Shown here: in pieces, positions 2,489 to 41,995 of the stretch
Layout: the number at the start of each line of letters is the position of its first letter
Numbering within the stretch: position 1 is the stretch's first letter
Assembly: GCA_038063255.1 (NCBI GenBank)
Contig: JBBTVL010000015.1
Span: 1-42,688 of the forward strand
Direction: 5' to 3'
DNA length: 42,688 bases
From: Patescibacteria group bacterium
Lineage (GTDB): Bacteria; Patescibacteriota; Minisyncoccia; Phycocordibacterales; VMEP01
The notes under the pieces: model-generated
Database searches by the model: none
Seen by the model: the letters and a program-made list of their open reading frames with translations, nothing else
Told to the model about the DNA's origin: nothing
Translations under genes and position numbers: made by a program

Positions 2489-3631
2489 ATGAAAACCGAA
2501 AAAGAAACAAGTACGGGTAGCACCGCGATATCAATCGCTTTCGCGTCTGCAAAGCCGTTTCCCGCCAAAAAGTCGGCATTGCTTTCCGTCAAGGGTGGTG
2601 ACGGGCTCAACTTTCCGACTATCGTCAAGCCGAAGCCCGGTGCCGCCGATGAGTTCCGCGAGCACCGGCAGAAGGTCAGGCAGTTCGCGGGCGACGCGAT
2701 CGATGCGCTCCCCGAGCTCCGCAATTATGTCGCGGAACTCACGGCAATCGAGGGGTGGCAAGAAGACCCGAAGATCGAGGCCGAAGTCAGGTCCGCCAAC
2801 CTCCAGATCGTCGAGATCGAAAAGGTTCCGGCGGTAAGGGACCAGCTGTTGTACAAGATGGTTGAGCTGGCAAAAACCGGCGACGAGTTTCTGGCGGCGC
2901 TTCACTTCGGACAGACCGTTTCAGCCCGCGCCGAAGAGTACCAAGCGGGGCGGGAGCACAAGTACCCGCGTCTTAGGGAAATATCCGGTGAAGATATGAA
3001 GCAGTTCAACGAATCCGCGAGGGTCGAGGGCGGCAGGAGGGACAACAAAAAGTTCTTCCAGTACGCCACAACTTTTCGTGGCGCCGTGTTTCTGTATTTT
3101 GAGCCGGACGGCGGCTTTGGGAACGACACTCCGTTCCAGTCGAAGCTCAAGAAGCTGATTCAGGACCGCAGGGGGCAATTCGTCCAAGCGGAACTGGGTA
3201 CGCTTCAGGAGAAGGATGCCGGCGAAAAGGCCAAGATCGTGGAAATCATGAAAGACCCGCGGTTCAAGCCAATCTCCGTCCTCAAGGATAACATCGCTCC
3301 CGGTCTTTACTGGGCGCACGCGTCGGAGAGGAATTTGGAGGGGAGGTCGCGGCCGGAAGGATTGTCGGTCATTGAGGTGTACGAGAATCCCAGTAACAAC
3401 AGGGGAATCCTGTACTTCAAGGTGAAAGATGCTTACGGCAGCGACCGTGACTTTACCGAACTCATCGGCAAGTGGAGTGCGCCCATAGAAAGGACGCTTC
3501 ACGGCGTCGTGCCCGAACGGGTGCTCGACAAGCTTGACGGGGAAATGGGCGAGAAAGTGAAGAGATTCACCAACATGCTCTACAAGCGGTTCTTCCACGC
3601 CGCTCGCATTCCCCTGCCGGACTCGCGCTAA
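2489..3631 (+). CDS. Hypothetical protein (380 aa), G+C-rich island gene, no domain recognised
   Basis: The ORF-track ORF opens at TTG 2399; I chose the first ATG at 2489 (MKTEKETS...). Long uninterrupted frame followed by strong hairpins. Confidence 0.6.
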   Translation: MKTEKETSTGSTAISIAFASAKPFPAKKSALLSVKGGDGLNFPTIVKPKPGAADEFREHRQKVRQFAGDAIDALPELRNYVAELTAIEGWQEDPKIEAEVRSANLQIVEIEKVPAVRDQLLYKMVELAKTGDEFLAALHFGQTVSARAEEYQAGREHKYPRLREISGEDMKQFNESARVEGGRRDNKKFFQYATTFRGAVFLYFEPDGGFGNDTPFQSKLKKLIQDRRGQFVQAELGTLQEKDAGEKAKIVEIMKDPRFKPISVLKDNIAPGLYWAHASERNLEGRSRPEGLSVIEVYENPSNNRGILYFKVKDAYGSDRDFTELIGKWSAPIERTLHGVVPERVLDKLDGEMGEKVKRFTNMLYKRFFHAARIPLPDSR

Positions 3632-3649
3632 AAACGCGAATGCAGTTTT

Positions 3650-3709
3650 CCGCCGCGGCAAGTAAAACTTGCCGCGGCGGATGAAGGGGGGCTCGTACTC
3701 CCCTTTTTT
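3650..3709 (+). terminator. Double hairpin terminator after the 380-aa gene
   Basis: 13-bp perfect stem ccgccgcggcaag/cttgccgcggcgg (3650-3680), then a gggg...cccc hairpin followed by a T-run (to 3709). Confidence 0.6.
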
Positions 3710-3757
3710 GTTTTTTTCTGCTAGACTCACGCAAGACTTTGAAGAAGGAGGTGTATT

Positions 3758-4270
3758 ATGGCAAAAGGCCATGACAGGTGTCGGCCTCAGCCCGAGAAAC
3801 TTGTACTTCTCTGCGATGGTGGTATCCGTGTTGAGCCATTCAAACAAGGGTATCTGATTGACCTGTCTCGCATCAGAGAAAGAGCGAGCTCCATCGCCCC
3901 GATAGCGTTGTCGTTCATGTTCGATTACCAAGACGGGCTCTATGAGCACCGAATCAGGAATCTCTACGACGAAAACTTCTTTTACATTACCTGTCCGAGA
4001 ATCCAAGAGGCCCAGAAAAATAAAGACAAGACAGACTGGGTTCTTAGCAAGTTCGGGTACATAGCTATTCCTCTCATGCCGGAGATTACCGATGTGGTCA
4101 TAGTTGCGAACGACGGAGACTTTGTTCCGCTTGTATCGCTTCTTAAGGACCACGGGAAGAGAGTAACCCTCTTTTACTACAAGAAACCTGCTGAGGGATA
4201 CTATTCCGTTCTTGGCAAGGAAATGATGTTCGATATCGCTGATTTCGGGCTAACGGCACAGCCGACCTAG
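3758..4270 (+). CDS. NYN/LabA-like (PIN-fold) nuclease-domain protein
   Basis: 170 aa with AGGAGG 6 nt upstream. LVLLCDGG near the N-terminus and VVIVANDGDFVPLVSLLKDHGKRV match the NYN acidic-residue pattern. Confidence 0.65.
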   Translation: MAKGHDRCRPQPEKLVLLCDGGIRVEPFKQGYLIDLSRIRERASSIAPIALSFMFDYQDGLYEHRIRNLYDENFFYITCPRIQEAQKNKDKTDWVLSKFGYIAIPLMPEITDVVIVANDGDFVPLVSLLKDHGKRVTLFYYKKPAEGYYSVLGKEMMFDIADFGLTAQPT

Positions 4271-5525: not shown

Positions 5526-5897
5526 ATGGCAACGGGGCTTGAAAATCTAAAAATTTACCAGATGGCAGAGGAATTAGAGTTGATGCTTCATAAAGTCACT
5601 GGCAAATTTCCCAATAATGAAAGGTTTAGAAGTGTAGACCAGATTAAAATATCTTTGGCGGCAGTTGCAAATAATATATCGGAGGGGTACACTAGGCATT
5701 CATATAAGAAAAAAGTCAGGTATCTTTATATAGCTAAAGGAGAAGCTGAAGAGACAAAAAGAAATATTATACGGTCTTTCAAGAAAGGATTTCTTGAGAA
5801 AAAAATAGCAGAAGAAATAACTGATAAATATACAGAATTATTGAAGGCAATCAGTGGTTATATAAAATTTTTAAAATCAAAAGATATAAACTTATAA
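5526..5897 (+). CDS. Four-helix-bundle protein (23S rRNA intervening-sequence protein / Avd-like family)
   Basis: 123 aa. LKIYQMAEEL...FP..ERF...DQI..S..AVANNISEGY is the typical family signature. It is inserted between nusG and rplK. Confidence 0.75.
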   Translation: MATGLENLKIYQMAEELELMLHKVTGKFPNNERFRSVDQIKISLAAVANNISEGYTRHSYKKKVRYLYIAKGEAEETKRNIIRSFKKGFLEKKIAEEITDKYTELLKAISGYIKFLKSKDINL

Positions 5898-5932: not shown

Positions 5933-6355
5933 ATGGCAAAGAGAATTACGAAGAAAATAAAACTCCAAGTGCCGGCAGGCCGTGCTACGCCCGCGCCACC
6001 ACTGGGTCCCGCGTTAGGCCAAGCCGGCGTCAATATAGGTGAATTTGTCACTAAATTTAATGCCGCCAGCAAAGATATGGCGGGGAATATTGTCTCGGTA
6101 AAGGTCCGGGTATATGAAGACAGGAGCTTTGATTTTGTGGTAAAAACTCCTCCAGTATCGGGGCTTATTTTAAAAGCGGCCGGCATAGAGAAAGGTTCCG
6201 GGAAAAACACAGCAACAAAGGTTGGCAAAATCAGTAAAGCTCAAGTGCGCGAAATCGCCGAAAAGAAAATGAAAGACCTCACCGCCAACGACATAGAAAG
6301 CGCGATGAAAATAATTGAAGGCAGTGCCCGGAGCATGGGGATAGAAGTCAAATAG
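5933..6355 (+). CDS. rplK: 50S ribosomal protein L11
   Basis: 140 aa with [26 protein letters not shown]. Confidence 0.95.
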
Positions 6356-6683: not shown

Positions 6684-6713
6684 AAAAAACGCCCCGCAGT
6701 GCGGGGCTTTTTT
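6684..6713. terminator. Bidirectional intrinsic terminator (3' of folA on the minus strand)
   Basis: gccccgc-agt-gcggggc flanked by an A-run and a T-run. Confidence 0.75.
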
Positions 6714-6719
6714 ATTGTT

Positions 6720-7229
6720 TCACTTACGACGAATGGTCAAAAACCTGGTCAGGGGATATGAAGGCAAAATTCTTTCTGCCACAATTTCCCCAAAATCTCT
6801 CCATTCGGGAAAGTAGGCGTCACCAGAAATGGGCTTATTTCCTCCGATGATGGTAAGGTACATAATTTTCACTTGGGGTAGAAACGCGCGATATATTTCC
6901 GCACCCCCACCGACAAAAATCGTTTTACTTTTCAATTTGTCGGCGTATTCGTATCCCCAAGCCAACGCTCTCTCAACCGAACATGCGAGAGTAACACCAT
7001 TTGGAACTTGCGATAGCGTTTTACTTACAACAATTAGCTTCCGCCCCGGGAGTTTTCCAGGAAGTGATTCCCATGTTTTTCTGCCGAAGATAATCGGTTT
7101 GCCCATTGTCAGTTCACGGAAATTTTTCATATCTTCCGGCGATTTCCACGGCAATCGACCGTTGCTCCCGATAATTCCTGTCGTCTCATGAAGCGCGGCG
7201 ATTATTGCAACTTGCGGTTTTTGCATCAC
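6720..7229 (-). CDS. folA: Dihydrofolate reductase
   Basis: 169 aa with VAIIAAL....IG..G.LPW....D...F...T.G..II.GRKT.ES and VGGG.IY motifs. Confidence 0.85.
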   Translation of the reverse strand: MMQKPQVAIIAALHETTGIIGSNGRLPWKSPEDMKNFRELTMGKPIIFGRKTWESLPGKLPGRKLIVVSKTLSQVPNGVTLACSVERALAWGYEYADKLKSKTIFVGGGAEIYRAFLPQVKIMYLTIIGGNKPISGDAYFPEWRDFGEIVAERILPSYPLTRFLTIRRK

Positions 7230-7339
7230 ACGTCTCCCTTGAAAGAGTCTGTGTTAAAATTACCAGAGGCTTTACTTTTTGGCAATAAAAGTATAGAAGT
7301 AATGACAGTCTAGTTACTTCAAATTTGGAGGATTCCAAA

Positions 7340-7951
7340 ATGATTAACAAGGGAATATTTGGTCCTAGCGTTGAGCTAAAGGACCGCCTAAAAACGCTGG
7401 AAGAAATCGGTTCCTTAGCAGAACATTGCAGGGGGCTTGGCCTTAGAGTTTCGATGACCCAGGGAAGTTGGGATTTGTACCACGATGCCCACAAGAAGTA
7501 TCTTGCCAAGGCGCGTTCGTTTGGCGATCTCCTTATCGTGGGGGTCGACTCGGATGAGAAGATTCGTCACCGAAAAGGAAAAGACAGGCCGATGGTTCCT
7601 CAAGGAGAACGACTTGATCTTCTGGCGGGAAACCGCAGCGTCGACGTGGTGGTGCTCAAGGAGCTTAACCACGAGAAGTGGGCCCTCATCAAGGCGGTAC
7701 GGCCAGATGTTCTTATCGTTTCGGAGACGACGAGGAAAAATAAACCGATTCCGCAAGAGGAGATAGACGAGATTAAGCAGTATTGCGGTGAGATCGTCGT
7801 TCTTCCGGCCCAGGGGGAAACGACAACAAGCGCGCGTGTTGCCCACTTTACTCTCAATATTGGTAGACAAATAAAGAAAGCGCTCGAAGATTCGATTCCA
7901 GGAATCATAGAACGTGTCACAGGCCCTCTCGGCGAAGGGGAGGAAAGATGA
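7340..7951 (+). CDS. Cytidylyltransferase-family nucleotidyltransferase, HldE/RfaE domain-II-like
   Basis: GGAGG 7 nt upstream of ATG 7340. Has the GSWDLYHDAH (GxxDxxHxxH) signature, GDLLIVGVDSD, RPMVPQGER..LL and a C-terminal TTTS. The stop overlaps the next start (ATGA). Confidence 0.7.
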   Translation: MINKGIFGPSVELKDRLKTLEEIGSLAEHCRGLGLRVSMTQGSWDLYHDAHKKYLAKARSFGDLLIVGVDSDEKIRHRKGKDRPMVPQGERLDLLAGNRSVDVVVLKELNHEKWALIKAVRPDVLIVSETTRKNKPIPQEEIDEIKQYCGEIVVLPAQGETTTSARVAHFTLNIGRQIKKALEDSIPGIIERVTGPLGEGEER

Positions 7952-8817
7952 AAATCTTAATTCTGTACATGCCAGTGCTCCACAAGGGCTACCTTGATCT
8001 CTTCGACCGCGTGAAGCCGGAAGTAATCGCGCTTCTCACGGAAGAAGTGCTTCGGGATCTGCCTGAAGGACTCTCCTACATCGCTAAGAAGGATTCGATT
8101 CGTGCAGTGCCTTCCAAAGAGATGTGGGTGGCGGTTTCATCGTTGTTTTCTTCGCAAGAAGTCACTGTAATGCGCGCTACGGTTGCCGATATTTCCTCGC
8201 TTGGTGGAAATTCTCATCAGATACTCATGCCCGACGAGGACGTCAGTCTGTCGGTGGCGGAGAAGTATTTCGGTGTAGGAAGGGTAACATTTGTCACCCC
8301 GCCGTCACGACTTCGCTATCACCGGAATAACGTCGAGGAAAAGAAACTTCTGGTGCCCGACCGCCGTCTCCCGCTCAGTAATCTTGACCGAGAAATGATG
8401 GCCATTGTGGGCAAAGCTTCCGAGCGGAGTCCGGACTGGTGGCGGCAGGTGGGCGGCGTGCTCGTTACCCCGGATGGCCGCAGTATCGTCGCCTACAACG
8501 AGCATCAGCCGCACGAACAGATCGCGGCAACTCTCGGCGATCCGCGCAGCATTTTCAAAAGCGGGGTGCGAACGGATCTTTCAAATGCCGAGCACGTGGA
8601 GCGCATAGTCATTGGCGAAGCCGCGCGGCAGAAGATCGGAACCGACAACTCGATTTTGTACCTCACGACGTTCCCATGTCTTCCGTGCGCCCATCTTATG
8701 GCTCGCGCTGGCGTAAAACGCCTTTTCTACCGCGACCCATCGTATGGACTTCTCGACGCCGACGAGTTCCTTCGTGGCAAGGAAATAGAGCTCATCGAAG
8801 TCTCTGATGGAACATGA
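7948..8817 (+). CDS. Fusion protein: unknown ~140-aa N-domain plus dCMP/cytidine-deaminase-fold domain
   Basis: C-terminal half has the zinc motifs HVE (in NAEHVERIVIGEA) and PCLPC, plus VGGVLV..DG..V..NE. The N-terminal half was not recognised. Confidence 0.7.
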   Translation: MKILILYMPVLHKGYLDLFDRVKPEVIALLTEEVLRDLPEGLSYIAKKDSIRAVPSKEMWVAVSSLFSSQEVTVMRATVADISSLGGNSHQILMPDEDVSLSVAEKYFGVGRVTFVTPPSRLRYHRNNVEEKKLLVPDRRLPLSNLDREMMAIVGKASERSPDWWRQVGGVLVTPDGRSIVAYNEHQPHEQIAATLGDPRSIFKSGVRTDLSNAEHVERIVIGEAARQKIGTDNSILYLTTFPCLPCAHLMARAGVKRLFYRDPSYGLLDADEFLRGKEIELIEVSDGT

Positions 8818-8887
8818 TTCAAGCGGCCTTAGCGGGTCGCTTTTTTTTGCATAAAAAAATCCCCCGGTTGGTTTCCGGGAGATGAAT

Positions 8888-9352
8888 CTATTTCGCTTTG
8901 TAGCCGAGCTTGACGCGGAGTGCTTCACCTTCTTTCCCGCCGCCGAAAATGAGTTGGGCATGGAAGTGGGAGATGGAAGCACCAGTGAAGTCGGTGTCGC
9001 CGAAGCGGAAGAAGAATCCGCCCGCAGGCAACCTATACTCTTCAATAGCCCATTCGATGAGCACCCCGAGGTCCTGCCATGCTTCCGGTGGTAAGTTGGG
9101 AAAGAGCACATGTCTTTCTTCGTCGAAGAATTTACTGACTATGAGGAAGTGCTTTTCAGCCCCCTCATATTTCGGGAAGCTTTCAGTGAAAGCCCAGTGC
9201 TCGGTTTCCTTGATGACGGGGTTGGGGTGATAGGTCGGCGACTTCCCTTGGCAAAAGTCAACGCAGAAGGAACACACCCTATCTCCCTGTATCCGCTCGT
9301 ACAACCTTCGCTGCTCTTCCGTGCGCGCATGGCGCATGTTCACTTCTGGCAT
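8888..9352 (-). CDS. HIT-superfamily protein, GalT/Apa branch (HxHxQ) single-repeat
   Basis: 154 aa with ISHFHAQLIF (H-x-H-x-Q rather than HxHxH) and an N-terminal CSFC. AAGGAGG lies 4 nt upstream and overlaps the stop of the upstream TS-fold gene. Confidence 0.6.
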   Translation of the reverse strand: MPEVNMRHARTEEQRRLYERIQGDRVCSFCVDFCQGKSPTYHPNPVIKETEHWAFTESFPKYEGAEKHFLIVSKFFDEERHVLFPNLPPEAWQDLGVLIEWAIEEYRLPAGGFFFRFGDTDFTGASISHFHAQLIFGGGKEGEALRVKLGYKAK

Positions 9353-9361
9353 AGCGCCTCC

Positions 9362-10276
9362 TTATGGGCTGACCGGAATGTCTTTTATTGCCGGATACGG
9401 ATGGTAATTCGCGACCTCAAAGTGCTCCTTGCGGAACGCGAAGAAGTCATCCGGCGGGTTTTTGAGCGTCACGGTCGGGAATGGCCGCGGCTCGCGAGAG
9501 ATTATTTCTTCAAGCACTCCCCTTTGGTTCTCGTAGTAATGAGCGTTGAGATATACGATGCTCATCTTTCCTGGTTCGTACCCAAGGACATGACAAAACG
9601 CGAGCCAAAATGCGGAAAACATCAGTCGATCGTGCGCTTCTCCGACGACCATGTCGGCTGAGCGCATCACCATCTCGAGATGAAGTTTCCCATCGAGGAC
9701 GAAGATGTTGATCACCGTGCCCCAACAGGGGACTGTCACCACCATTTGACGCTTGCCTTTCCCTCGGAAAATTCCCGGAGGGTAGAGCGTGGTCATAGTG
9801 TGGGTTTTCAAATGGGGCAGTTCCCGAACTTGGTCGATGACAGCCTGGATCTGGTTGAACATCGTTCCATCATGGGCGGGGAAGTCATGCAGGACTACGT
9901 AGCTCGCCGGCCCTAGATCTCCCTGCGCCAGACCGCGCTTTTCGCACTTCCTCGGATCCTCGAACGTTGAGTTCCAGAATGGGACTTGCCAGTCCCGATT
10001 GAGTTCGTTGTTCATCCGCACGCCATTAGCGAGCGCGAACCCTTCATTGATGCTCGCCTTGCCGATTTGCCGGCAGGTTTCCATGGGGCAACCGTTCTTG
10101 ATGTCATAGACATGCGAAATGGCGAATGGCAGACTGTACGTCGCCCGTTCGGTTTCCCCGGCTTTCTTGCTTTGCTGGGTTTCCGAACGGATGCCTTCGC
10201 GAAGAAGGCGTATGCACAGACTGCGAAATTGCATATCTGGCACCCGTTCTTTATACATCAAGTATGCAATGTTCAT
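9362..10276 (-). CDS. Thymidylate-synthase-fold enzyme, divergent (deoxycytidylate hydroxymethylase/methylase-like)
   Basis: 304 aa. GDLGP, VPCW (nucleophile Cys), DGKLHLEMVMRSADMVVG, NAHYY and ISREPRPFP align by eye with ThyA. Asp sits at the ThyA Asn177 position. Confidence 0.75.
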   Translation of the reverse strand: MNIAYLMYKERVPDMQFRSLCIRLLREGIRSETQQSKKAGETERATYSLPFAISHVYDIKNGCPMETCRQIGKASINEGFALANGVRMNNELNRDWQVPFWNSTFEDPRKCEKRGLAQGDLGPASYVVLHDFPAHDGTMFNQIQAVIDQVRELPHLKTHTMTTLYPPGIFRGKGKRQMVVTVPCWGTVINIFVLDGKLHLEMVMRSADMVVGEAHDRLMFSAFWLAFCHVLGYEPGKMSIVYLNAHYYENQRGVLEEIISREPRPFPTVTLKNPPDDFFAFRKEHFEVANYHPYPAIKDIPVSP

Positions 10277-10368
10277 TTTTTTTCCTCTCGAAATATTGTG
10301 AATGTGCTACGCTGGCATCAAGCTACGCTTTTTGGTACCCGATGTCAATGCCGTGTTAGAATTCGCCT

Positions 10369-11913
10369 ATGATGAGAGAGACTATTAAGGATGCGCTTAA
10401 AGGAGCGGTTCCGCATGTGATGCCCGAAGTGATGTTTTCGGAGGGGAATAAAAACGGTCACCTCACTACTAATTGCGCTCTTATATCAGCAAAAGTAACG
10501 GGGATATCGCCACTCGAATTGGCAGAGAAGATAAAGGGGGAGATTGAACCGAAGCTTAAGGGTGTTATTGAACGCATTGAAATTGCCGGCCCCGGTTTCA
10601 TCAATTTTTTTCTGAAAGACGAAGCGATTATAAATGAACTTAAAGAAGTTGAGAAAAAAATAAAAAAAGGATTTGATTTTAGAAAGGGGGAGAAAATAAA
10701 TATTGAATTTATTTCCGCCAATCCGACCGGCGAACTTCACATCGGCCACGGCCGAGGCGCTTTTTACGGCGACACAATCGCAAACATCTTGGAATTTTCG
10801 GGCGCCAAAGTAACGCGCGAATACTATATAAACGATTCTCGCGAGAGCAATCAGATAAAAGAACTTGGTAAAACCGCCCTTGGAATGGGGGAGACATATC
10901 TTACCGAAAAATTAAAAAAACAAATTTCAAAACTTAAAATAGGGTTAAGTGATGCTGGCGAAGCGGGATTTAAATTGGCTCTAGTTATACAAAAAGACAA
11001 CAAAGAATTTATAGAAAAGAAACTCGGCATAAGATTTGACGAGTGGTATTCAGAAGATGAAAAATTACGTGCGTCAAAACTCAACGACCGCACATTTCTT
11101 GCTCTTAAAATGAAAGAGTTAGTTTATGAAAAAGATGGGGCTATGTGGCTTAAAACTTTAGAATATGGCGATGATGAAGACAGGGTTGTAGTACGTTCCG
11201 ATGGAACGAACAGTTATTTTCTTTCCGATATTTCTTATCATAGTGAAAAATTCTTGCGTGGTTATGACGTAGTGATTAATGTTTGGGGGGCGGACCACCA
11301 TGGGCATGTAAAACGAATGGAGGCAGTGAAGAAAATGCTCGGATGGAAGGGGGATTTAAAAATTTTTATTACGCAATTGGTTTCGCTTAAAGATGGCAAG
11401 ATGTCGAAGCGTGCGGGTAATGTAATTTTACTTAGAGATTTAGTTAATGAATTTGGCCTTGACGTAGTTCGATGGTTCTTTAGTGAAAAAGCGCTGACCA
11501 CTCACATGGAATTTGATGCTGTGCGTGCTAAAGAACAATCAGAAAAAAATCCCGTATTTTATGTGCAGTATGCTCATGCTCGCATGAATTCTATTTTAGA
11601 AAAAGCCAAAGATTTTAAAAAAGATAACACTACAATCTTGGAAGTGGTGAAAATTCCATCCGCTCGCGCCCTCGCGTTAAAATTGGCTCAACTGGAAGAA
11701 ATTATTGAATCAATTGTGGAAGAATATCAAGTACAAAAATTAACCACTTATGCATATGAACTTGCTACCGTTTTTTCACAATTTTATCGCGACGTGCGAG
11801 TGATAGAAGAAACTTCTTATAACAACGGCGCCCTTGAAATGATTGAAACGACAAAAAATGTTTTGGCAAAATCCCTCTCGCTTCTTGGAATTTCCGCGCC
11901 AAATAAAATGTGA
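10369..11913 (+). CDS. argS: Arginine--tRNA ligase
   Basis: 514 aa with SANPTGELHIGHGRG (HIGH) and GKMSKRAGN. Confidence 0.9.
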   Translation: MMRETIKDALKGAVPHVMPEVMFSEGNKNGHLTTNCALISAKVTGISPLELAEKIKGEIEPKLKGVIERIEIAGPGFINFFLKDEAIINELKEVEKKIKKGFDFRKGEKINIEFISANPTGELHIGHGRGAFYGDTIANILEFSGAKVTREYYINDSRESNQIKELGKTALGMGETYLTEKLKKQISKLKIGLSDAGEAGFKLALVIQKDNKEFIEKKLGIRFDEWYSEDEKLRASKLNDRTFLALKMKELVYEKDGAMWLKTLEYGDDEDRVVVRSDGTNSYFLSDISYHSEKFLRGYDVVINVWGADHHGHVKRMEAVKKMLGWKGDLKIFITQLVSLKDGKMSKRAGNVILLRDLVNEFGLDVVRWFFSEKALTTHMEFDAVRAKEQSEKNPVFYVQYAHARMNSILEKAKDFKKDNTTILEVVKIPSARALALKLAQLEEIIESIVEEYQVQKLTTYAYELATVFSQFYRDVRVIEETSYNNGALEMIETTKNVLAKSLSLLGISAPNKM

Positions 11914-12068
11914 AGTGTGTGCAGGTGAACCCGCATAAATACCCCATAGGACTCTCCTATGGGGCTCCTAATGAGGGTGTTTTACTTTCTTTAATTGACT
12001 TTTACCAGGGTTGACATAATGTTCTCAGTTTGAGAGTCTTTCGGTAGATGGCTCCTAAGGAGGAATTT

Positions 12069-12422
12069 ATGCAACAAACCATTAATCCGAATAATGTAAT
12101 CGTTTTCGGCTCCGCGTCTGTTGTCATCAACCTGCTGTTTCTCGCCCTTGCCGTCCGTGGCGAGCTGAAGGGTAAAACTCCCCAAGAGATACTCCAGCAA
12201 CAAACACCCCGCTGTGTTTCAGCTTTTCTGGGGTTGCTCGTCGCGTGCTATGCATACGCCTACGCCCCGCTCCTTTTTGCGATACACCCTCCGATTGCAA
12301 TTGAATTCGGCCGTTGGGTCATTGGGCTTGCGACTGGCGCAATCGTAACATGTAGTGCGCTCTACCTATTCCATCTTGGCGGTTACTTCAAGGAGTTACT
12401 AAGACGGTCTTTCCTCCGGTAG
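12069..12422 (+). CDS. Hypothetical small membrane protein (G+C-rich patch)
   Basis: AAGGAGG 5 nt upstream of ATG 12069. About 3-4 hydrophobic segments. A terminator-like hairpin follows. Confidence 0.5.
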   Translation: MQQTINPNNVIVFGSASVVINLLFLALAVRGELKGKTPQEILQQQTPRCVSAFLGLLVACYAYAYAPLLFAIHPPIAIEFGRWVIGLATGAIVTCSALYLFHLGGYFKELLRRSFLR

Positions 12423-12585
12423 AGCGATTCAAAGAATTTGCTGGACGGTGATTTTTTCGCAATATAGCGCTGTGCCCGATGTGGTACGGCGCTTTTTCCT
12501 TGTATTTCGAAAAATAGAGTGCTACACTCTCTTTCATCTGGAATGGGTCCAGATTTTTTATTTCCAAAAACAGTTCTTTCAGGGG

Positions 12586-12960
12586 ATGAAATTGACAAAA
12601 GCCACAGAAGTGAAAAAGCCTCTCTCTGAAGAGGCCATCAGGCAGGTTCGTTCAGCCCTCACTCTTCCGGAACATGTTCGCGAGATGGTAGAGGACAGCG
12701 AAATCCATCTTTTTGCCGAGTCCCTCTGGCATTGGTGGCAGCATATGAAGACATTCAATCGGTACATGGTTTCCATATGCGACAAGTACTGGCACCCCGC
12801 GCCAATTCCGGTGGCGGAGTGTCCGGAAAAACTTTTGCTCTGGGTCGTGCGCCAGCTCGGGCAAGGGCGGAAGATTGTCGCTGTCGGCCACAAAAACAAG
12901 ACGGTGGAGGCCAGAATCTTCGAGTGGTTTTCCTACTTCGCTCCCGTCCCCGCCGTCTAG
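12586..12960 (+). CDS. Hypothetical protein (124 aa, G+C-rich patch)
   Basis: First ATG in the ORF-track ORF 12448-12960. The upstream part overlaps the previous gene's terminator. Trp-rich, no domain recognised. Confidence 0.45.
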   Translation: MKLTKATEVKKPLSEEAIRQVRSALTLPEHVREMVEDSEIHLFAESLWHWWQHMKTFNRYMVSICDKYWHPAPIPVAECPEKLLLWVVRQLGQGRKIVAVGHKNKTVEARIFEWFSYFAPVPAV

Positions 12961-13286: not shown

Positions 13287-16200
13287 ATGAAACTAGAGGA
13301 AGAAATACTAAAATTTTGGCAAGAAAAGGGGATATTCAAAAAAACTTTAACTGAAAGGGCTTCCGGTAAAAAATTCGTATTTTACGACGGACCGCCCTTT
13401 GCTACCGGACTCCCTCATTACGGGCATATTTTGGCCGGAACTATCAAGGATGTCATTCCGCGCTATCAAACCATGCGCGGGCGATTTGTGCGCCGAGAGT
13501 GGGGCTGGGATTGTCATGGGCTTCCGCTTGAAAATATTATTGAAGAAGAACTAGGGCTCAAGCATAAGAAAGATATAGAAAAATTCGGCATTGAGAATTT
13601 TAATGATGCCGCCTCGCGCGCAGTACTTCGTTATGAAAATGACTGGAAAAAAATAATTCCTAAAACCGGGCGTTTCGTGGATATGGAGAATCCCTACAAA
13701 ACAATGGACGCCACATACACGGAATCCGTCTGGTGGTCCTTCAAAACTCTTTATGACAAAGGGCTGATATACGAAGGGCATAAAATAATGCTGGTGTGTC
13801 CGCGCTGTGAGACCACTCTTGCTCAGAGTGAAGTCGCTTTGGGCGGGTACCACGATGTTACTGATATTTCGGTGATAGTGAAATTTGAACTTATTGATGA
13901 GCCAGGAACATTTCTTTTGGCGTGGACGACGACACCGTGGACATTGCCTGGGAACACAGCCCTTGCGGTAAACAAGAATGTTGAATATGTAAAAGTCAGT
14001 ATCAAAAATTATCAGAATGTTCCTGATGGAATATATATATTTTCTAAAAAAGATTACGAAGATTATAAAAAAGAAATTGACAACGAAAAAAATAGAGAGA
14101 TAAAAACAAAGGTTGATATTTTAAAAACTTTCAAGGGAAGCGAACTTGTTGGTAAATCTTATATTCCTCCGTTTGATTATTTTTATAAAGATGAAAAAAT
14201 AAAAAATCACAAAAACGGATGGAAAGTTTATCATGCTGATTTTGTTACGACGGAAACCGGAACCGGAATCGCCCATGAGGCGCCGGCCTTCGGCGAAGAC
14301 GATATGCAACTCGCGCTCAAAAACAACATTCCCATTGTTCAGCATGTAGGAATGGATGGCAAAATGAAAAACGAAGTCAAAGATTTTCGCGGTTTATATG
14401 TAAAACAAAAGGGCGATACTCAGTCAACCGACATTGAAATTGTAAAATATCTCGCCCAAAAAGAACTTCTCTTTGCCAAAGAAAAAGTGGTGCACCCATA
14501 TCCTCTCTGCTGGCGCTGCGACACGCCGCTTTTAAACTATGCAACAAATTCATGGTTTGTTAAAGTAACGGATTTTAAGGACAAGCTGATAAGAGAAAAC
14601 AAAAAAATCGTCTGGGTGCCAGCGCACATGCGAGATGGCCGTTTCGGTAAATGGCTCGAAGCGGCCAAGGATTGGGCGATTTCGCGAACTCGTTTTTGGG
14701 GCGCACCCCTTCCGGTCTGGCGCTGTGAAAAATGTAAAAAAATTGAAATTATTGGAAGTTTAGGTGAACTTCAGAAATCAATACCTAAAAGCGGAAATAA
14801 ATATTTTGTTATGCGACATGGGCAAGCTGAGAGCAATATTTCTGGTACTAACGATTCCACAGGCAACCCGAATAATCATCTAACCGAGAATGGGCGAGAA
14901 AGTATACGGCGTTTTGCTAAAGAATTTTCTAAAAAAGGGATAACTCGTATTATGACTTCACCGTTCGCTCGTGCTAAGGAAAGCGCAGAAGTTATCGCAC
15001 ACGAACTTGGACTCCCGGAACAAAATATCTTGTCCGACCAACGATTGATTGAATTTAATCACGGCTCCGACCGTCAGGGTAAAAAAATAAGTAACAATAA
15101 TCCAGAACCATTTAATGAAAATGATCTTTATATTCGCCATGATGACGGTGAGAGCCACGCAGAGGTTAGATCACGGGTAGTTTCGGTGATATTTGATATG
15201 GAAAAAACCTATAAAAATGAGACGATACTTATTGTTACCCATGGTTCTCCAATGTGGATGCTTATCACCGGGGCTTTAGGTATGAGTGACAAGGAAACAA
15301 TAAAATATCAGGAAGAACGCAAAAAAGACAATGGGGACTATTTTATTTCAAACGGCCAGATTGAGAAAATTGACTTTGTCCCGTTTCCCCATAACAAAGA
15401 GTACGAACTTGATTTTCACCGCCCGTATATAGACGAAGTGAAGCTATCTTGCACTTGCGGTGGAGAGATGGAGCGCATCAAAGATGTCTTTGACTGCTGG
15501 TTTGAATCTGGCTCCATGCCCTACGGGCAATTTCATTATCCTTTTGAGAACAAAAAAGTTTTTAAAGAAAATTTTCCCGCCGATTTCATCGCCGAAGGAC
15601 TGGATCAAACCCGCGGATGGTTTTACAGCATGATGGTACTTGGCGTTGCGCTTTTCGGCGAGACGCCGTTTAAGAATGTTATCGTGAATGGCCTTATTTT
15701 GGGCGAAGACGGCCAGAAGATGGCCAAAAAACTTAAGAATTATCCGGATGTGACGGAGTTGATTGAAAAATACGGCGCTGATGCGCTCCGTTATTATTTT
15801 CTCTCGTTACCGGTAATGCGCGGAGAAGACATTGCTTTCTCGGAAAAGGGAATTAGTGATGTCTATAAGAAGATTATATTACGGCTCCTTAATGTCTATA
15901 GTTTCTACAAAATGTATGCCCATGAACTTCGTTTTGAGGACTCGTTCAAGAAGAGCAAAAATGTACTGGACCAATGGATATTGTCGCGCCTTTCAGAATT
16001 ATCTATAGAGATGACGCGCGGAATGGATGCTTACGAGCTTGATGTTGCTGTGCGCGGAATTGAAAAATTTGTTGACGATTTTTCCACCTGGTACTTGCGC
16101 CGCTCCAGAGAAAGAGTGAAGGGAGATGATAAAGAGGACAAAGAAATGTCACTTTCGACCATCCGTTTTGTCCTTTTTGAATTTTCCAAATTAATCGCTC

Positions 16201-16808
16201 CCGCAATGCCGTTTGTTGCGGAAGATATTTATCAGAAAGTGAAAGGATTAAAAGATAAAGAAAGCGTGCATCTTGAAGCTTGGCCCGAAGCGGGGAAGAT
16301 TGATAAAAAAAATATCGCCAAAATGGAAACAACCAGGTGTCTTGTTGAGCTTGCCCTCGCCCTTCGCGCGGAGAAAGGAATAAAAGTGCGTCAGCCACTT
16401 GCCATTTTGGAAGTAAGCAAAGAGGAAGGTGAATTTTTTGAAGAACTAATTAGAGACGAGGTTAATGTTAAAAAAATCTTTGTGGGAGCATTTTCCAAGG
16501 GGGCGGTGACACTGGACACAAATATTACACCCGAACTCAAGGAAGAAGGACAGTTTCGCGACCTAACGCGAGCAATCCAAGAATTGCGTAAAAAAGAAAA
16601 ACTTACGCATCATGATGTCGTTTCATTTGTAATTGATACCGATACAAGGGGGCGGGAATTAATTTCAAAATTTGAAGTACAATTAAAAAAGGCGGTATCG
16701 GCGGACAAAATTGTGTTTGAAAAAAATAACGGCGAAGAAATATTGATTAACGATACTATTTTAAAAGTTTCGCTAAAAAATCCCATTAGAAGTTCAGAAA
16801 AATTATAG
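13287..16808 (+). CDS. ileS: Isoleucine--tRNA ligase with an internal histidine-phosphatase-like insertion
   Basis: 1173 aa with PHYGH (HIGH), an editing-domain region, WAISRTRFWGAPLPVW, CxxC pairs, FHRPYIDEV and KMAKKLKN (KMSKS-like). Confidence 0.9.
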   Translation: MKLEEEILKFWQEKGIFKKTLTERASGKKFVFYDGPPFATGLPHYGHILAGTIKDVIPRYQTMRGRFVRREWGWDCHGLPLENIIEEELGLKHKKDIEKFGIENFNDAASRAVLRYENDWKKIIPKTGRFVDMENPYKTMDATYTESVWWSFKTLYDKGLIYEGHKIMLVCPRCETTLAQSEVALGGYHDVTDISVIVKFELIDEPGTFLLAWTTTPWTLPGNTALAVNKNVEYVKVSIKNYQNVPDGIYIFSKKDYEDYKKEIDNEKNREIKTKVDILKTFKGSELVGKSYIPPFDYFYKDEKIKNHKNGWKVYHADFVTTETGTGIAHEAPAFGEDDMQLALKNNIPIVQHVGMDGKMKNEVKDFRGLYVKQKGDTQSTDIEIVKYLAQKELLFAKEKVVHPYPLCWRCDTPLLNYATNSWFVKVTDFKDKLIRENKKIVWVPAHMRDGRFGKWLEAAKDWAISRTRFWGAPLPVWRCEKCKKIEIIGSLGELQKSIPKSGNKYFVMRHGQAESNISGTNDSTGNPNNHLTENGRESIRRFAKEFSKKGITRIMTSPFARAKESAEVIAHELGLPEQNILSDQRLIEFNHGSDRQGKKISNNNPEPFNENDLYIRHDDGESHAEVRSRVVSVIFDMEKTYKNETILIVTHGSPMWMLITGALGMSDKETIKYQEERKKDNGDYFISNGQIEKIDFVPFPHNKEYELDFHRPYIDEVKLSCTCGGEMERIKDVFDCWFESGSMPYGQFHYPFENKKVFKENFPADFIAEGLDQTRGWFYSMMVLGVALFGETPFKNVIVNGLILGEDGQKMAKKLKNYPDVTELIEKYGADALRYYFLSLPVMRGEDIAFSEKGISDVYKKIILRLLNVYSFYKMYAHELRFEDSFKKSKNVLDQWILSRLSELSIEMTRGMDAYELDVAVRGIEKFVDDFSTWYLRRSRERVKGDDKEDKEMSLSTIRFVLFEFSKLIAPAMPFVAEDIYQKVKGLKDKESVHLEAWPEAGKIDKKNIAKMETTRCLVELALALRAEKGIKVRQPLAILEVSKEEGEFFEELIRDEVNVKKIFVGAFSKGAVTLDTNITPELKEEGQFRDLTRAIQELRKKEKLTHHDVVSFVIDTDTRGRELISKFEVQLKKAVSADKIVFEKNNGEEILINDTILKVSLKNPIRSSEKL
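14799..15390 (+). other. Histidine-phosphatase (PGAM-superfamily) domain inserted in frame in IleRS (about residues 505-700)
   Basis: YFVMRHGQAESN (RHG), TSPFARAKESAEVIA (SPxxRAxxTA-like) and LIVTHGSPM (second His). It lies between ...CEKCKKIEIIGSLGEL and DFHRPYIDEV. Confidence 0.7.
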
Positions 16809-41900: not shown

Positions 41901-41908
41901 TAAGTCAG

Positions 41909-41970
41909 AAAAGTTGAATAAGTTCGATAAGTTTAGAAAGGGAACTTATTAAACTAAAGCGAAGCGTAAC
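41909..41970 (+). repeat. rplJ-rplL spacer element homologous to the secE upstream element
   Basis: aaaagttgaataagttcgataagttt...gaacttattaaactaaagcgaagcgtaac. Confidence 0.6.
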
Positions 41971-41995
41971 CTATTAAACTAATTAAACTAAAACA

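What the first reader, a model, noticed from the sequence alone, without database searches (positions are those of the whole stretch)
6720..10300. G+C-rich pyrimidine-nucleotide cluster: cytosine-type TS-fold enzyme + GalT-type HIT + HldE-like nucleotidyltransferase + deaminase fusion, next to folA
Between rplK/folA and argS lies a visibly G+C-richer block holding two divergent two-gene operons. On the plus strand, an HldE-domain-II-like nucleotidyltransferase (7340-7951) has a stop that overlaps (ATGA) the start of an unknown-N-domain::dCMP-deaminase fusion (7948-8817). On the minus strand, a TS-fold protein (10276-9362) ends in a TAA that sits inside the AAGGAGG of a 154-aa HxHxQ HIT protein (9352-8888). 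TS + DHFR + dCMP deaminase alone would be ordinary dTMP synthesis. Here, though, the TS-fold protein carries the cytosine-specifying Asp (see the separate finding). A sugar-phosphate-type nucleotidyltransferase and a GalT-branch nucleotidyl-transfer enzyme also have no role in that pathway. My inference is a pathway that makes a C5-substituted (methyl or hydroxymethyl) pyrimidine nucleotide which is then activated or transferred. That could mean phage-like DNA base hypermodification on a cellular chromosome, a nucleoside-type metabolite, or an unconventional dCMP -> 5-methyl-dCMP -> dTMP route, which would fit the DHFR linkage.
Basis: partly seen in the sequence, partly recalled or inferred. 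Interest (0 to 1): 0.8.

Follow-up and report, generated by a model that had tools for sequence, protein, structure and literature searches.

The report
Thymidylate gene cluster with cytosine-type synthase
This is the ordinary thymidine-nucleotide synthesis gene cluster of a tiny Patescibacteria (CPR) bacterium, but in this lineage the thymidylate synthase carries the residue that specifies cytosine and its partner deaminase has changed with it, suggesting these cells make dTMP by methylating dCMP first and deaminating second.

Summary
The four ORFs, the ATGA overlap, the TAA-in-RBS junction, the Asn177->Asp replacement and the G+C-rich block are all real. The two operons are convergent, not divergent, and the HIT protein is Hint-like, not GalT-like.

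In 80 metagenome loci chosen without regard to TS type, the accessory genes are core partners of thymidylate synthase across Patescibacteria. The NT is upstream of the deaminase fusion in 60/60 loci, HIT is downstream in 58/63, and TS is present in 44/45. Most of those TSs have canonical Asn. DHFR-HIT and NT-deaminase fusion proteins exist. The accessory genes therefore do not indicate hypermodification.

The Asp-type TS is a clade nested within Patescibacteria ThyA. It sits in the same argS/rplK slot, is 24-27% identical to E. coli ThyA, and shares only a 30-residue local match with T4 gp42. It keeps the ThyA C-terminal tail and lacks the published hydroxymethylase signatures. TS, deaminase and HIT co-diverge (each 100/100 bootstraps) while adjacent L11+NusG do not (0/100). 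The deaminase zinc motif is PC-L-xC in 14/14 Asp-type loci and in 0/54 Asn-type loci.

Best reading, about 50% confidence: dCMP -> 5-methyl-dCMP -> dTMP, with DHFR/SHMT recycling folate. This is unproven biochemically, and I could not check for a second TS elsewhere in these genomes.

The parts
6720..7229 (-). folA, dihydrofolate reductase; separately transcribed, divergent from the NT gene
   Evidence: PF00186 E 4e-37. DHFR is adjacent to the cluster in 6 of 14 non-redundant Asp-type loci and in many Asn-type loci. It has no Asp-group-specific positions.
6691..6707 (.). bidirectional intrinsic-terminator-like hairpin between rplK and the 3' end of folA
   Evidence: 7-bp all-GC stem with T-runs on both strands. 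This is a consensus match only.
7340..7951 (+). NT: cytidylyltransferase-superfamily nucleotidyltransferase (HxAH and TTTSxR motifs), first gene of the plus-strand operon; substrate unknown
   Evidence: PF01467 7e-13; TIGR02199 96 bits, below its 181.5 cut-off. Nearest solved structures are HldC-like 5x9q (2e-14) and ECT 3elb. GGAGG lies before the ATG at 7340. It is immediately upstream of the fusion in 60/60 loci and is fused to it in P0406.
7948..8361 (+). N-terminal domain of the fusion protein: Rossmann-like alpha/beta domain with invariant PxxHxGY, PDEDVS and LR[YW] motifs; function unknown
   Evidence: Invariant P9 H12 Y15 E97 D98 R123. AF2 gives a beta-alpha-beta fold, pLDDT mostly >90. 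No Pfam or PDB sequence match. hhalign against the NT family gives E 0.21. It occurs in only 582 of 1.84 billion representative clusters, nearly always N-terminal to the deaminase.
8383..8817 (+). dCMP-deaminase domain of the fusion protein (HxE ... PCxxC), here with the Asp-type-specific PC-L-PC zinc motif
   Evidence: PF00383 1e-11. H216 E218 C244 C247 are invariant. Foldseek best hits are dCMP deaminases 2hvw, 1vq2, 2w4l and 4p9e at E ~1e-9. PC-L-xC is found in 14/14 Asp-type and 0/54 Asn-type loci.
8821..8883 (.). two facing intrinsic-terminator-like hairpins ending the two convergent operons
   Evidence: Plus strand 8821-8842 followed by T8; minus strand 8883-8859 followed by T7.
8888..9352 (-). 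HIT-superfamily protein (Hint-like fold, CxxC(xxx)C ... HxHx[QH]); second gene of the minus-strand operon; substrate unknown
   Evidence: Homologs carry PF01230. Profile against PDB hits Hint/Fhit. AF2 pLDDT 93.4. Foldseek matches ecHint and hHint1. It is downstream of the fusion in 58/63 loci and fused to DHFR in L011, L026 and L031. The Asp-type-specific 'DFC' insertion is described.
9362..10276 (-). ThyA-lineage thymidylate-synthase-fold enzyme with Asp at the Asn177 position (motif G-E-A-H-D-R); predicted dCMP C5-methyltransferase
   Evidence: PF00303 2e-33, but below all NCBIfam ThyA equivalog cut-offs. Asp shown. Clade with intermediates 100/100. Full-length BLASTP to EcThyA at 4e-23, against a 30-aa local match to T4 gp42. 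Cys146, R166, S167, D169, H207, Y209, E58, W80, Y94 and the C-terminal tail are retained.

Best explanation
The block is this Patescibacteria genome's thymidylate-synthesis cluster. It is the positional orthologue of a cluster that is conserved across the phylum between argS and rplK/nusG. That cluster has two convergent operons, [NT -> N-domain::dCMP deaminase] and [ThyA (-> DHFR) -> HIT], with DHFR, SHMT, dUTPase and thymidylate kinase variably adjacent.

In the sub-lineage to which the window belongs, the ThyA has become cytosine-specific (Asn177->Asp plus about 30 other fixed changes) while keeping the reductive-methylation architecture. I infer that it methylates dCMP to 5-methyl-dCMP using CH2-THF and releases DHF, which folA recycles. 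I further infer that the co-adapted deaminase fusion then deaminates 5-methyl-dCMP to dTMP. The two steps of the usual dCMP -> dUMP -> dTMP route would thus run in reverse order, bypassing dUMP.

Shown: gene identities at family level, synteny, co-conservation, fusion proteins, the residue pattern and the co-divergence. Inferred: the substrates and products of both enzymes and the order of steps.

The NT, the N-domain and the HIT protein are conserved but functionally unassigned components of the cluster in both its canonical and variant forms.
For: (1) Same slot and same partners as canonical ThyA: Asn-type loci L011 and L012 lie between argS and rplK-nusG with the fusion, NT, DHFR and HIT. 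In the FUS-centred sample, NT is present in 60/60, HIT in 58/63, TS in 44/45 and ThyX in 0/28.
(2) Functional linkage by fusion: DHFR-HIT in L011, L026 and L031; NT+N-domain+deaminase in P0406; ATGA and RBS-overlap coupling.
(3) Asp at 177 is fixed in a clade. Asp-type sequences plus three Asn 'intermediates' group in 100/100 bootstraps, with the sister being Asn-type Patescibacteria ThyA.
(4) Asn177/229->Asp converts TS into a dCMP methylase making 5mdCMP (Liu & Santi 1992; Hardy & Nalivaika 1992, as cited in PMC8670742).
(5) Hydroxymethylase signatures from PMC6400193 are absent: the C-terminal tail is kept (IPVSP), Cys-3 is Thr rather than Asp/Glu, position 83 is Phe, and there is no S-x-Y.
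(6) Deoxyribose-type Ser167 is invariant (determinant from PMC5175136).
(7) DHFR is adjacent in 6 of 14 Asp-type loci and SHMT in others. Only the methylase reaction yields DHF (PMC6400193).
(8) Co-divergence: Asp-group-specific positions number 31 in TS, 21 in FUS and 9 in HIT, against 3 in NT and 0 in DHFR, L11 and NusG. Bootstrap support for the Asp-type split is 100/100/100 for TS/FUS/HIT and 0 for L11+NusG.
(9) The deaminase zinc motif is PC-L-xC in 14/14 Asp-type and 0/54 Asn-type loci. The Asn-bearing intermediate L013 keeps PC-P-PC.
(10) dCMP deaminases are documented to accept 5-methyl-dCMP (PMC12088426).
Against: There is no biochemical evidence, and substrate assignments rest on one residue plus precedent.

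An ordinary dUTPase is still divergently adjacent to the Asp-type TS in L003, L010 and L018, so dUMP is still produced next to the enzyme.

Most scaffold changes (Thr at Cys-3, Phe83, Asn205) and the HIT insertion already exist in Asn-bearing intermediates. Much of the co-divergence could therefore reflect a divergent or laterally transferred module rather than adaptation to new substrates. The block's GC deviates from its flanks in both directions in Asp-type loci.

The link between the deaminase zinc motif and N177D rests phylogenetically on essentially one transition and one intermediate locus. The trees are NJ on simple distances, and the L11+NusG control has only 320 columns.
Confidence: 0.5

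Rival explanations
1. The Asp-type enzyme is still a dUMP-methylating thymidylate synthase. The Asp is tolerated or compensated by the neighbouring Glu174, His176 and Arg178 and by the reciprocal Asp205->Asn change, and the pathway order is the usual dCMP -> dUMP -> dTMP. The co-divergence of TS, deaminase and HIT would then only reflect a divergent, possibly laterally transferred, version of the same module.
For: An ordinary dUTPase is retained next to the Asp-type TS. Asn-bearing intermediates already share the scaffold and the HIT insertion. His147 is kept in most members. There is a reciprocal N177D/D205N swap. GC deviations suggest module transfer, and thyA horizontal transfer is reported in Patescibacteria (PMC12455944).
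Against: Mutagenesis precedent says Asn->Asp switches specificity to dCMP (PMC8670742). Natural Asp enzymes in this family use cytosine substrates (PMC5175136). Glu, His and Arg also occur together with Asn (P0040), so they are not obviously compensators for Asp. The deaminase active-site motif changes exactly with residue 177.
Confidence: 0.22
2. The enzyme makes 5-methyl-dCMP that is, wholly or partly, phosphorylated and incorporated, so that the organism's DNA carries 5-methylcytosine in place of cytosine (as in phage XP12). The deaminase would divert part of the pool to dTMP.
For: Same evidence for dCMP methylase activity as in the best explanation. The HIT protein co-diverges with the TS scaffold, which would fit an enzyme handling phosphorylated forms of the intermediate.
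Against: Nothing in the loci resembles a dCTPase or another dCTP-exclusion function, which XP12/T4-type full replacement would need. The cluster composition is otherwise identical to canonical dTMP clusters. No modification-specific genes were seen. DNA modification cannot be read from assemblies.
Confidence: 0.1
3. One reading: a dCMP or CMP hydroxymethylase feeding phage-like base hypermodification or a nucleoside-type secondary metabolite, with the NT and HIT activating or transferring the modified nucleotide.
For: Asp at the cytosine-specifying position. Lys at the Arg126' position as in MilA/BcmA. Nucleotidyl-transfer-type enzymes are adjacent.
Against: NT, HIT and the fusion accompany canonical Asn-type ThyA in most loci. 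Hydroxymethylase signatures are not met. Ser167 is the deoxy type, and Lys126' also occurs in 14/57 Asn-type enzymes. Identity to phage TS-family proteins is at most 26%, and the match to T4 gp42 is only a 30-aa local one. DHFR linkage is not expected for a hydroxymethylase (PMC6400193). The cluster sits in a core chromosomal slot next to ribosomal and tRNA-synthetase genes. PADLOC shows no defence system.
Confidence: 0.06

Closest known systems
Canonical bacterial ThyA (thymidylate synthase, EC 2.1.1.45) with DHFR, dCMP deaminase, SHMT, Dut and Tmk: the standard dTMP pathway
   Same: TS fold with full-length alignment to E. coli ThyA (E 4e-23). Catalytic Cys, Arg166, Ser167, Asp169, His207, Tyr209, Glu58, Trp80, Tyr94 and the C-terminal tail are present. 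It branches within Patescibacteria ThyA and occupies the same chromosomal slot with the same partner genes.
   Different: Asp replaces the uracil-specifying Asn177, together with Glu174, His176, Arg178, Asn205, Phe83 and Thr at Cys-3. It scores below every NCBIfam ThyA equivalog cut-off. The partner deaminase carries a different zinc motif.
Engineered TS N177D (E. coli) / N229D (L. casei) dCMP methylases and the phage XP12-type dCMP methyltransferase
   Same: An Asp at the same position in an otherwise TS-like enzyme with intact folate and hydride-transfer features. The predicted product is 5-methyl-dCMP plus DHF (PMC8670742).
   Different: This is a natural, cellular enzyme in a chromosomal core-metabolism context, paired with a dCMP-deaminase-family enzyme, so the predicted end product is dTMP rather than 5mC DNA. 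It is at most 26% identical to any phage TS-family protein. Activity is untested.
T4 gp42 dCMP hydroxymethylase
   Same: The cytosine-specifying Asp aligns with T4 Asp179, and the RSxD motif and catalytic Cys are shared.
   Different: 17.6% identity, and only a 30-residue BLASTP match. It has the C-terminal tail that gp42 lacks, Thr rather than Asp at Cys-3, no Ser-x-Tyr geometry, and a bulky Phe where gp42 has Val85.
MilA / BcmA CMP hydroxymethylases of nucleoside-antibiotic pathways
   Same: Asp at the base-specifying position, and Lys at the Arg126' position.
   Different: Ser rather than Ala at the Ser167 position, which is the primary ribose determinant. There is no secondary-metabolite context. 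Lys126' is also common in Asn-type Patescibacteria ThyA.
Hint/Fhit-branch HIT nucleotide hydrolases, and DCTD-type dCMP deaminases
   Same: The HIT protein has the fold, the CxxC zinc site and the histidine triad. The deaminase domain has HxE/PCxxC, the dCMP-deaminase fold and an [AG][YF]N remnant of the allosteric motif.
   Different: The HIT protein gives no Pfam or NCBIfam hit on its own, has HxHx[Q/H], is tightly linked to ThyA and is sometimes fused to DHFR. The deaminase carries a unique N-terminal domain and is coupled or fused to a nucleotidyltransferase.

Membership tests
Thymidylate synthase ThyA (dUMP-specific) | TS fold / PF00303 match over the full length | tested here: met
   PF00303 E 2.4e-33, residues 16-299. 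BLASTP to E. coli ThyA at 4e-23 over 284 columns.
Thymidylate synthase ThyA (dUMP-specific) | Catalytic Cys146 and the core residues Arg166, Ser167, Asp169, His207, Tyr209, Glu58, Trp80, Tyr94 | tested here: met
   All are conserved in 81/81 homologs, apart from one Phe at position 209.
Thymidylate synthase ThyA (dUMP-specific) | Asn177 (E. coli numbering), which specifies uracil | tested here: not met
   Asp in the window and in 40 of 81 homologs; motif G-E-x-H-D-R.
Thymidylate synthase ThyA (dUMP-specific) | Reaches NCBIfam equivalog cut-off | tested here: not met
   Best is NF002497 at 97.5 bits against a cut-off of 327; TIGR03284 scores 77 against 108.
Thymidylate synthase ThyA (dUMP-specific) | dUMP -> dTMP activity / complementation of a thyA mutant | not testable with these tools
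   Requires an enzyme assay or genetics.
dCMP C5-methyltransferase (TS N177D / XP12 type) | Asp at position 177 in a TS-fold enzyme | tested here: met
   Precedent cited in PMC8670742.
dCMP C5-methyltransferase (TS N177D / XP12 type) | Intact reductive-methylation architecture: C-terminal tail sealing the site, Asp169, a hydrophobic residue at position 83 | tested here: met
   The tail IPVSP is the same length as in E. coli, Asp169 is invariant, and position 83 is Phe. This is a sequence-level inference only.
dCMP C5-methyltransferase (TS N177D / XP12 type) | DHF produced, hence dependence on DHFR | tested here: inconclusive
   folA is adjacent in the window and in 5 other non-redundant Asp-type loci, but DHFR is equally common beside Asn-type TS, and product identity is untested.
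dCMP C5-methyltransferase (TS N177D / XP12 type) | Formation of 5-methyl-dCMP from dCMP | not testable with these tools
   Requires an in vitro assay with LC-MS.
T4 gp42-type dCMP hydroxymethylase | No C-terminal tail | tested here: not met
   A full ThyA-type tail is present; criterion from PMC6400193.
T4 gp42-type dCMP hydroxymethylase | [quoted passage not shown] | tested here: not met
   Thr in 13/13 Asp-type sequences.
T4 gp42-type dCMP hydroxymethylase | Ser/Thr-x-Tyr geometry, and a small residue at the EcTS Trp83 position | tested here: not met
   The motif is G-P-A-S-Y, with Ser directly before Tyr, as in Asn-type relatives. Position 83 is Phe.
T4 gp42-type dCMP hydroxymethylase | Cytosine-specifying Asp179 | tested here: met
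   BLASTP aligns ...GEAHD with ...GFRND.
MilA/BcmA-type CMP hydroxymethylase | Ala at the EcTS Ser167 position (room for the 2'-OH) | tested here: not met
   Ser in 81/81; criterion from PMC5175136.
MilA/BcmA-type CMP hydroxymethylase | Lys at the EcTS Arg126' position | tested here: inconclusive
   Lys in 13/13 Asp-type but also in 14/57 Asn-type sequences, so it is not diagnostic here.
HIT superfamily, GalT branch | HIT fold with a histidine triad | tested here: met
   H129 and H131 are invariant. Profile hits to HIT proteins. Foldseek match to Hint.
HIT superfamily, GalT branch | Conserved HxHxQ and closest similarity to GalT / Ap4A-phosphorylase-type enzymes | tested here: not met
   Q and H alternate across the family. 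GalT scores E 0.15 against Hint/Fhit at 5e-4 to 2e-3. The top 50 structural matches are all HIT-family hydrolases, mostly Hint-type, and none is GalT.
HldE domain II / RfaE heptose-1-P adenylyltransferase | Reaches the TIGR02199 equivalog-domain cut-off | tested here: not met
   96.3 bits against a cut-off of 181.5. Membership holds only for the PF01467 superfamily.
dCMP deaminase (DCTD/ComEB type) | HxE and PCxxC zinc/catalytic motifs and the CDA fold | tested here: met
   H216 E218 C244 C247 are invariant. Foldseek hits 2hvw, 1vq2 and 2w4l at E ~1e-9.
dCMP deaminase (DCTD/ComEB type) | Allosteric G(Y/W)N(A/G) motif; single-domain architecture; NCBIfam cut-off | tested here: not met
   Only [AG][YF]N with invariant N184 (motif from PMC12088426). 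There is an extra ~140-aa N-domain. ComEB scores 28.8 bits against 219.

The most novel reading that the evidence does not exclude
A lineage of free-living or episymbiotic cellular organisms (Patescibacteria) makes dTMP without a dUMP intermediate. A ThyA-derived dCMP methyltransferase produces 5-methyl-dCMP, and a co-evolved dCMP-deaminase-family enzyme converts it to dTMP. In addition, dTMP synthesis throughout Patescibacteria depends on three conserved, uncharacterised components: a cytidylyltransferase-fold enzyme, a novel domain fused to the deaminase, and a Hint-like HIT protein sometimes fused to DHFR.
Probability: 0.4. Interest if true: 0.8.

Novelty: new variant of a known kind. Interest (0 to 1): 0.62.

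Why it matters
Thymidylate synthesis is among the most conserved and most drug-targeted steps of metabolism, and only two enzyme solutions (ThyA and ThyX), both acting on dUMP, are known in cells. A natural cellular ThyA that has switched to cytosine, embedded in the organism's only visible dTMP cluster and co-varying with its deaminase, would be a third route at pathway level. It would bypass dUMP and so reduce dUTP/uracil load. It would also be a natural replay of the classic N177D/N229D specificity-switch experiments.

Independently, the analysis shows that hundreds of Patescibacteria lineages keep a nucleotidyltransferase, a novel domain and a HIT protein tightly linked, and sometimes fused, to ThyA, DHFR and dCMP deaminase. 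That points to unrecognised steps or regulation in dTMP synthesis in a phylum that makes up a large part of bacterial diversity.

All of this is directly testable with four small soluble proteins.

Tried and rejected
- **Exact look-up of the window TS** in the assembly index failed, because public gene calls use a shorter start (290 aa, P0001).
- **GalT identity of the HIT protein** is rejected.
- **Phage origin of the TS** is rejected: all 1883 phage hits are below 60% identity and the best listed are about 26%.
- **Defence-system identity** is rejected: PADLOC gives only a local zinc-motif hit to dCTPase.
- **N-domain assignment failed.** Pfam at E<=10, a PDB profile search, PHROGs and hhalign against the NT family (E 0.21) found nothing.
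- **Dut in Asp-type loci** is not specialised (for example as a dCTPase): it is an ordinary dUTPase.
- **No riboswitch or RNA element and no tRNA** in the window. The promoter scan is at chance level.
- **Technical failures:** a first Biopython tree run timed out, a first TS-type regex was off by one (fixed), two literature queries were malformed, and one review held nothing relevant.
- **Literature searches** for a prior description of this cluster or of a cellular dCMP-methylation route to dTMP found none. This covers open-access text only.

Full report

- folA, 6720-7229(-): DHFR_1, E 4e-37.
- NT, 7340-7951(+): CTP_transf_like, E 7e-13. It scores 96 bits on the rfaE-domain-II model, well below that model's 181.5-bit cut-off.
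- Fusion, 7948-8817(+): a dCMP/cytidine-deaminase domain at residues 146-261 behind about 140 residues that match nothing.
- TS, 9362-10276(-): Thymidylat_synt, E 2e-33, but below every NCBIfam ThyA equivalog cut-off.
- HIT, 8888-9352(-): 154 aa, no Pfam or NCBIfam hit at all.

The fine-scale claims hold. The NT stop and the fusion start overlap as ATGA at 7948-7951. The TS stop TAA lies inside TAAGGAGG, five bases before the HIT ATG. The NT has GGAGG before the ATG at 7340. The block 7340-10276 is the most G+C-rich 2.9-kb stretch in the window (0.533 against a mean of 0.446, SD 0.030), with GC3 of 0.54-0.66 against 0.36-0.49 in folA, rplK and argS.

The Asn177->Asp replacement is visible directly. 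The query reads 'mrsadmvvgeahDrl' against 'qrsadvflgvpfNia' in solved ThyA structures, and BLASTP aligns the same Asp with Asp179 of T4 dCMP hydroxymethylase.

Two details are wrong. The two operons are convergent, not divergent: two facing terminator hairpins occupy the 8818-8887 gap. And the HIT protein is not of the GalT type (section 4).

**2. What organism, and how common is the arrangement?**

Homologs of all four proteins come only from Patescibacteria/CPR metagenome-assembled genomes (Minisyncoccia, Paceibacterota, Campbell-, Taylor- and Kerfeldbacteria). The rest of the window is ordinary chromosome: tRNA synthetases, RecA, FtsK, SSB, EF-P and ribosomal proteins.

Contexts for three close TS homologs showed the same four-gene block between argS and rplK-nusG. 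DHFR, SHMT or a dUTPase were variably adjacent.

The decisive control was the context of the more distant TS homologs that have the canonical Asn. In Campbellbacteria (L011) and Taylorbacteria (L012) these sit in the same slot with the same 281-288-aa deaminase fusion, the same NT, DHFR and a HIT protein.

To sample without bias toward TS type, I scanned metagenomes with the fusion-protein profile. That gave at least 543 relatives, of which the best 80 loci were kept. Wherever the flanks were long enough:
- NT lies immediately upstream of the fusion in 60/60 loci.
- HIT lies downstream in 58/63.
- TS is present in 44/45.
- DHFR, dUTPase and SHMT each lie within the locus in 12-16 of 28, and Tmk in 3 of 28.
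- ThyX is present in 0/28.

Three independent Asn-type loci encode a DHFR-HIT fusion protein. One representative, P0406, is a single polypeptide of NT + N-domain + deaminase.

The accessory genes are therefore standing members of the Patescibacteria thymidylate cluster. They are not markers of a special pathway tied to the Asp variant. This removes the main argument behind the hypermodification reading.

**3. What is special about the window's version?**

Among 81 TS homologs the family splits cleanly. Sequences at least 58% identical to the window carry G-E-[APV]-H-D-R. Those at 43% or below carry G-V-P-S-N-M or similar, with Asn. Three sequences (P0040, P0042, L013) have Asn in an otherwise Asp-like scaffold.

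In an NJ tree rooted on T4 gp42:
- Asp-type sequences plus these intermediates form a clade in 100/100 bootstraps.
- Their sister groups are Asn-type Patescibacteria ThyA.
- The window protein is 26.7% identical to E. coli ThyA and 17.6% to gp42.

BLASTP aligns it end to end with E. coli ThyA (E 4e-23). Against gp42 it aligns only over 30 residues (E 0.047). No phage TS-family protein exceeds about 26% identity. The enzyme is therefore a derived member of the local ThyA lineage.

I then scored published discriminators.

*Hydroxymethylase signatures.* The T4 dCH ternary-complex paper (PMC6400193) defines them as loss of the C-terminal tail, Asp/Glu three residues before the catalytic Cys, a Ser-x-Tyr geometry, and a small residue at the EcTS Trp83 position. 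It also notes that hydroxymethylases release THF whereas TS releases DHF and needs DHFR. The Asp-type enzymes keep a full-length tail (IPVSP against APVAI), have Thr at Cys-3 and Phe at position 83, and read S-Y as their Asn-type relatives do. The signature is not met.

*Sugar specificity.* The MilA paper (PMC5175136) assigns ribose preference to Ala at the Ser167 position with Lys at Arg126'. Here Ser167 is invariant. Lys126' is present but also occurs in 14/57 Asn-type enzymes.

*Base specificity.* The Asn->Asp change alone converts E. coli and L. casei TS into dCMP methylases that form 5-methyl-dCMP (references cited in PMC8670742).

By sequence, the best-fitting activity is reductive C5-methylation of dCMP.

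**4. The partners**

*HIT.* More distant homologs carry PF01230. C27, C30, H42, H81, H129 and H131 are invariant, but the third triad position is Q or H. The family profile matches Hint/Fhit proteins at E 5e-4 to 2e-3 and GalT only at 0.15. A confident AF2 model (pLDDT 93.4) matches E. coli and human Hint. It is a Hint-like HIT protein of unknown substrate.

*Fusion protein.* H216, E218, C244 and C247 are invariant. The C-terminal domain of the model matches dCMP deaminases from S. mutans, T4, human and cyanophage S-TIM5 at E ~1e-9.

The N-domain is a Rossmann-like beta-alpha-beta domain with invariant PxxHxGY, PDEDVS and LR[YW] motifs.
- It has no match in Pfam, PHROGs or PDB sequences.
- It shows no significant profile-profile similarity to the NT family (E 0.21).
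- It occurs in only 582 of 1.84 billion representative clusters, essentially always in this fusion.

Its function is unassigned.

*NT.* It keeps the HxAH and TTTSxR motifs. It is closest to heptose-1-phosphate adenylyltransferase and ethanolamine-phosphate cytidylyltransferase.

PADLOC finds no defence system.

**5. Co-divergence**

I compared Asp-type and Asn-type loci protein by protein. An Asp-group-specific position is one that is at least 90% fixed in the Asp group while its residue occurs in at most 10% of the Asn group.

| Protein | Asp-group-specific positions | % of length |
|---|---|---|
| TS | 31 | 10.2 |
| Fusion | 21 | 7.3 |
| HIT | 9 | 5.8 |
| NT | 3 | 1.4 |
| DHFR | 0 | 0 |
| L11 | 0 | 0 |
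| NusG | 0 | 0 |

Across 34 loci that have all the markers:

| Marker | Bootstraps separating Asp-type loci | Between/within distance ratio |
|---|---|---|
| TS | 100/100 | 2.2 |
| Fusion | 100/100 | 1.7 |
| HIT | 100/100 | 1.6 |
| NT | 75/100 | 1.4 |
| L11+NusG | 0/100 | 1.1 |

One of the fusion's switch positions lies inside the zinc motif. In the non-redundant set, PC-L-xC occurs in 14/14 Asp-type loci and in 0/54 Asn-type loci, which have P (52), M (1) or Q (1).

The one intermediate locus with context, L013, is informative. Its TS has Asn177 in the Asp-like scaffold. Its deaminase keeps the Asn-type motif PC-P-PC. Its HIT already has the Asp-type 'DFC' insertion. The deaminase active-site change therefore coincides with N177D, while the HIT and scaffold changes came earlier. 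This rests on a single locus.

Asp-type blocks also deviate in G+C from their flanks in both directions (-0.06 to +0.12, SD 0.051, against SD 0.024 for Asn-type). That suggests the module moves laterally. thyA transfer has been reported in this phylum (PMC12455944).

**6. Most likely mechanism**

The Asp-type cluster replaces the canonical one in the same slot. It keeps DHFR/SHMT linkage and the methylation architecture, and its deaminase changes with residue 177. dCMP deaminases are known to accept 5-methyl-dCMP (PMC12088426).

The best-supported model is therefore dCMP -> 5-methyl-dCMP (TS-Asp, CH2-THF -> DHF) -> dTMP (fusion deaminase), with folA and SHMT closing the folate cycle. Inputs and outputs are the same as in the usual dCMP -> dUMP -> dTMP route. 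Only the order of steps and the intermediate differ.

I put this at about 0.5.

**7. What argues against it**

- No enzyme data exist.
- I could not search the rest of these genomes for thyX, another thyA or tdk.
- An ordinary dUTPase is still divergently adjacent to the Asp-type TS in three loci, so dUMP is still made there.
- Much of the co-divergence predates N177D and could reflect a divergent or transferred module.
- The motif-residue coupling rests on what is effectively one evolutionary transition.

The main rival, at about 0.22, is that the enzyme still methylates dUMP with a rewired recognition site. Partial or complete use of 5-methyl-dCMP for DNA (XP12-like) is about 0.1. The hydroxymethylase, hypermodification or metabolite reading is about 0.06.

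**8. Novelty and verdict**

Known relatives are canonical ThyA, the engineered N177D/N229D methylases, phage dCMP methylases and hydroxymethylases, and MilA/BcmA. I found no description of a cellular, core-metabolism Asp-type ThyA, of a dCMP-first route to dTMP, or of this NT/N-domain/HIT-containing cluster (open-access literature only).

I class it as a new variant of a known kind. It is a specificity-switched ThyA with a co-varying deaminase, inside a conserved cluster that also contains three uncharacterised components.

Its preferred interpretation is not supported, but its third listed alternative is the one the evidence favours.

Noticed in passing
window 13287-16808 (+): The isoleucyl-tRNA synthetase carries an inserted histidine-phosphatase (His_Phos_1) domain at residues 507-671. 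The same architecture appears in the IleRS of related loci L005, L007, L009 and L012.
   Followed up: no
window 5526-5897 (+): A 23S-rRNA-intervening-sequence-family four-helix protein (PF05635), with very low G+C (0.31), is wedged between nusG and rplK.
   Followed up: no
window 5933-6355 and 41400-42361: rplK is not followed by rplA, and rplJ-rplL lie about 35 kb away, so the usual rplKAJL cluster is split and no L1 gene is visible next to L11.
   Followed up: no
window 10369-11913 (+); L004, L014 against the other loci: The window's ArgS (514 aa) is 57-61% identical to ArgS in L004 and L014 but only about 25% to the 551-593-aa ArgS in the same position in all other loci. Two very different ArgS types occupy the same slot.
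   Followed up: partly
L011 8921-9862; L026; L031: DHFR and the HIT protein are fused into one polypeptide in three independent Asn-type loci.
   Followed up: yes
protein P0406 (469 aa, metagenomic representative): A single polypeptide combines the nucleotidyltransferase (45% identical to the window's), the novel N-domain and the dCMP deaminase.
   Followed up: yes
L011 11713-13300: This Campbellbacteria locus has, between the NT and rplK, a thymidylate kinase, an AAA_17-type kinase and a second stand-alone 165-aa dCMP deaminase in addition to the fusion deaminase.
   Followed up: no
window 9362-10276 (-), residue 185: The window's TS has Trp at the E. coli His147 position (PCWG). Only it and its database copy P0001 do so among 81 homologs, which otherwise have His or, rarely, Asn. 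Position 147 is the second specificity-associated site reported in PMC8670742.
   Followed up: partly
window 2921-4153 (-), 12048-12960 (+), 34411-37884 (+): There are other G+C-rich patches. One holds a 410-aa ORF with no Pfam match, another holds two small ORFs with no match, and a third holds a 1157-aa protein with only a peptidoglycan-binding domain.
   Followed up: no
L003, L010, L018 (Asp-type loci); L013: An ordinary dUTPase gene is transcribed divergently 57-396 bp from the Asp-type TS, indistinguishable from those next to Asn-type TS.
   Followed up: yes
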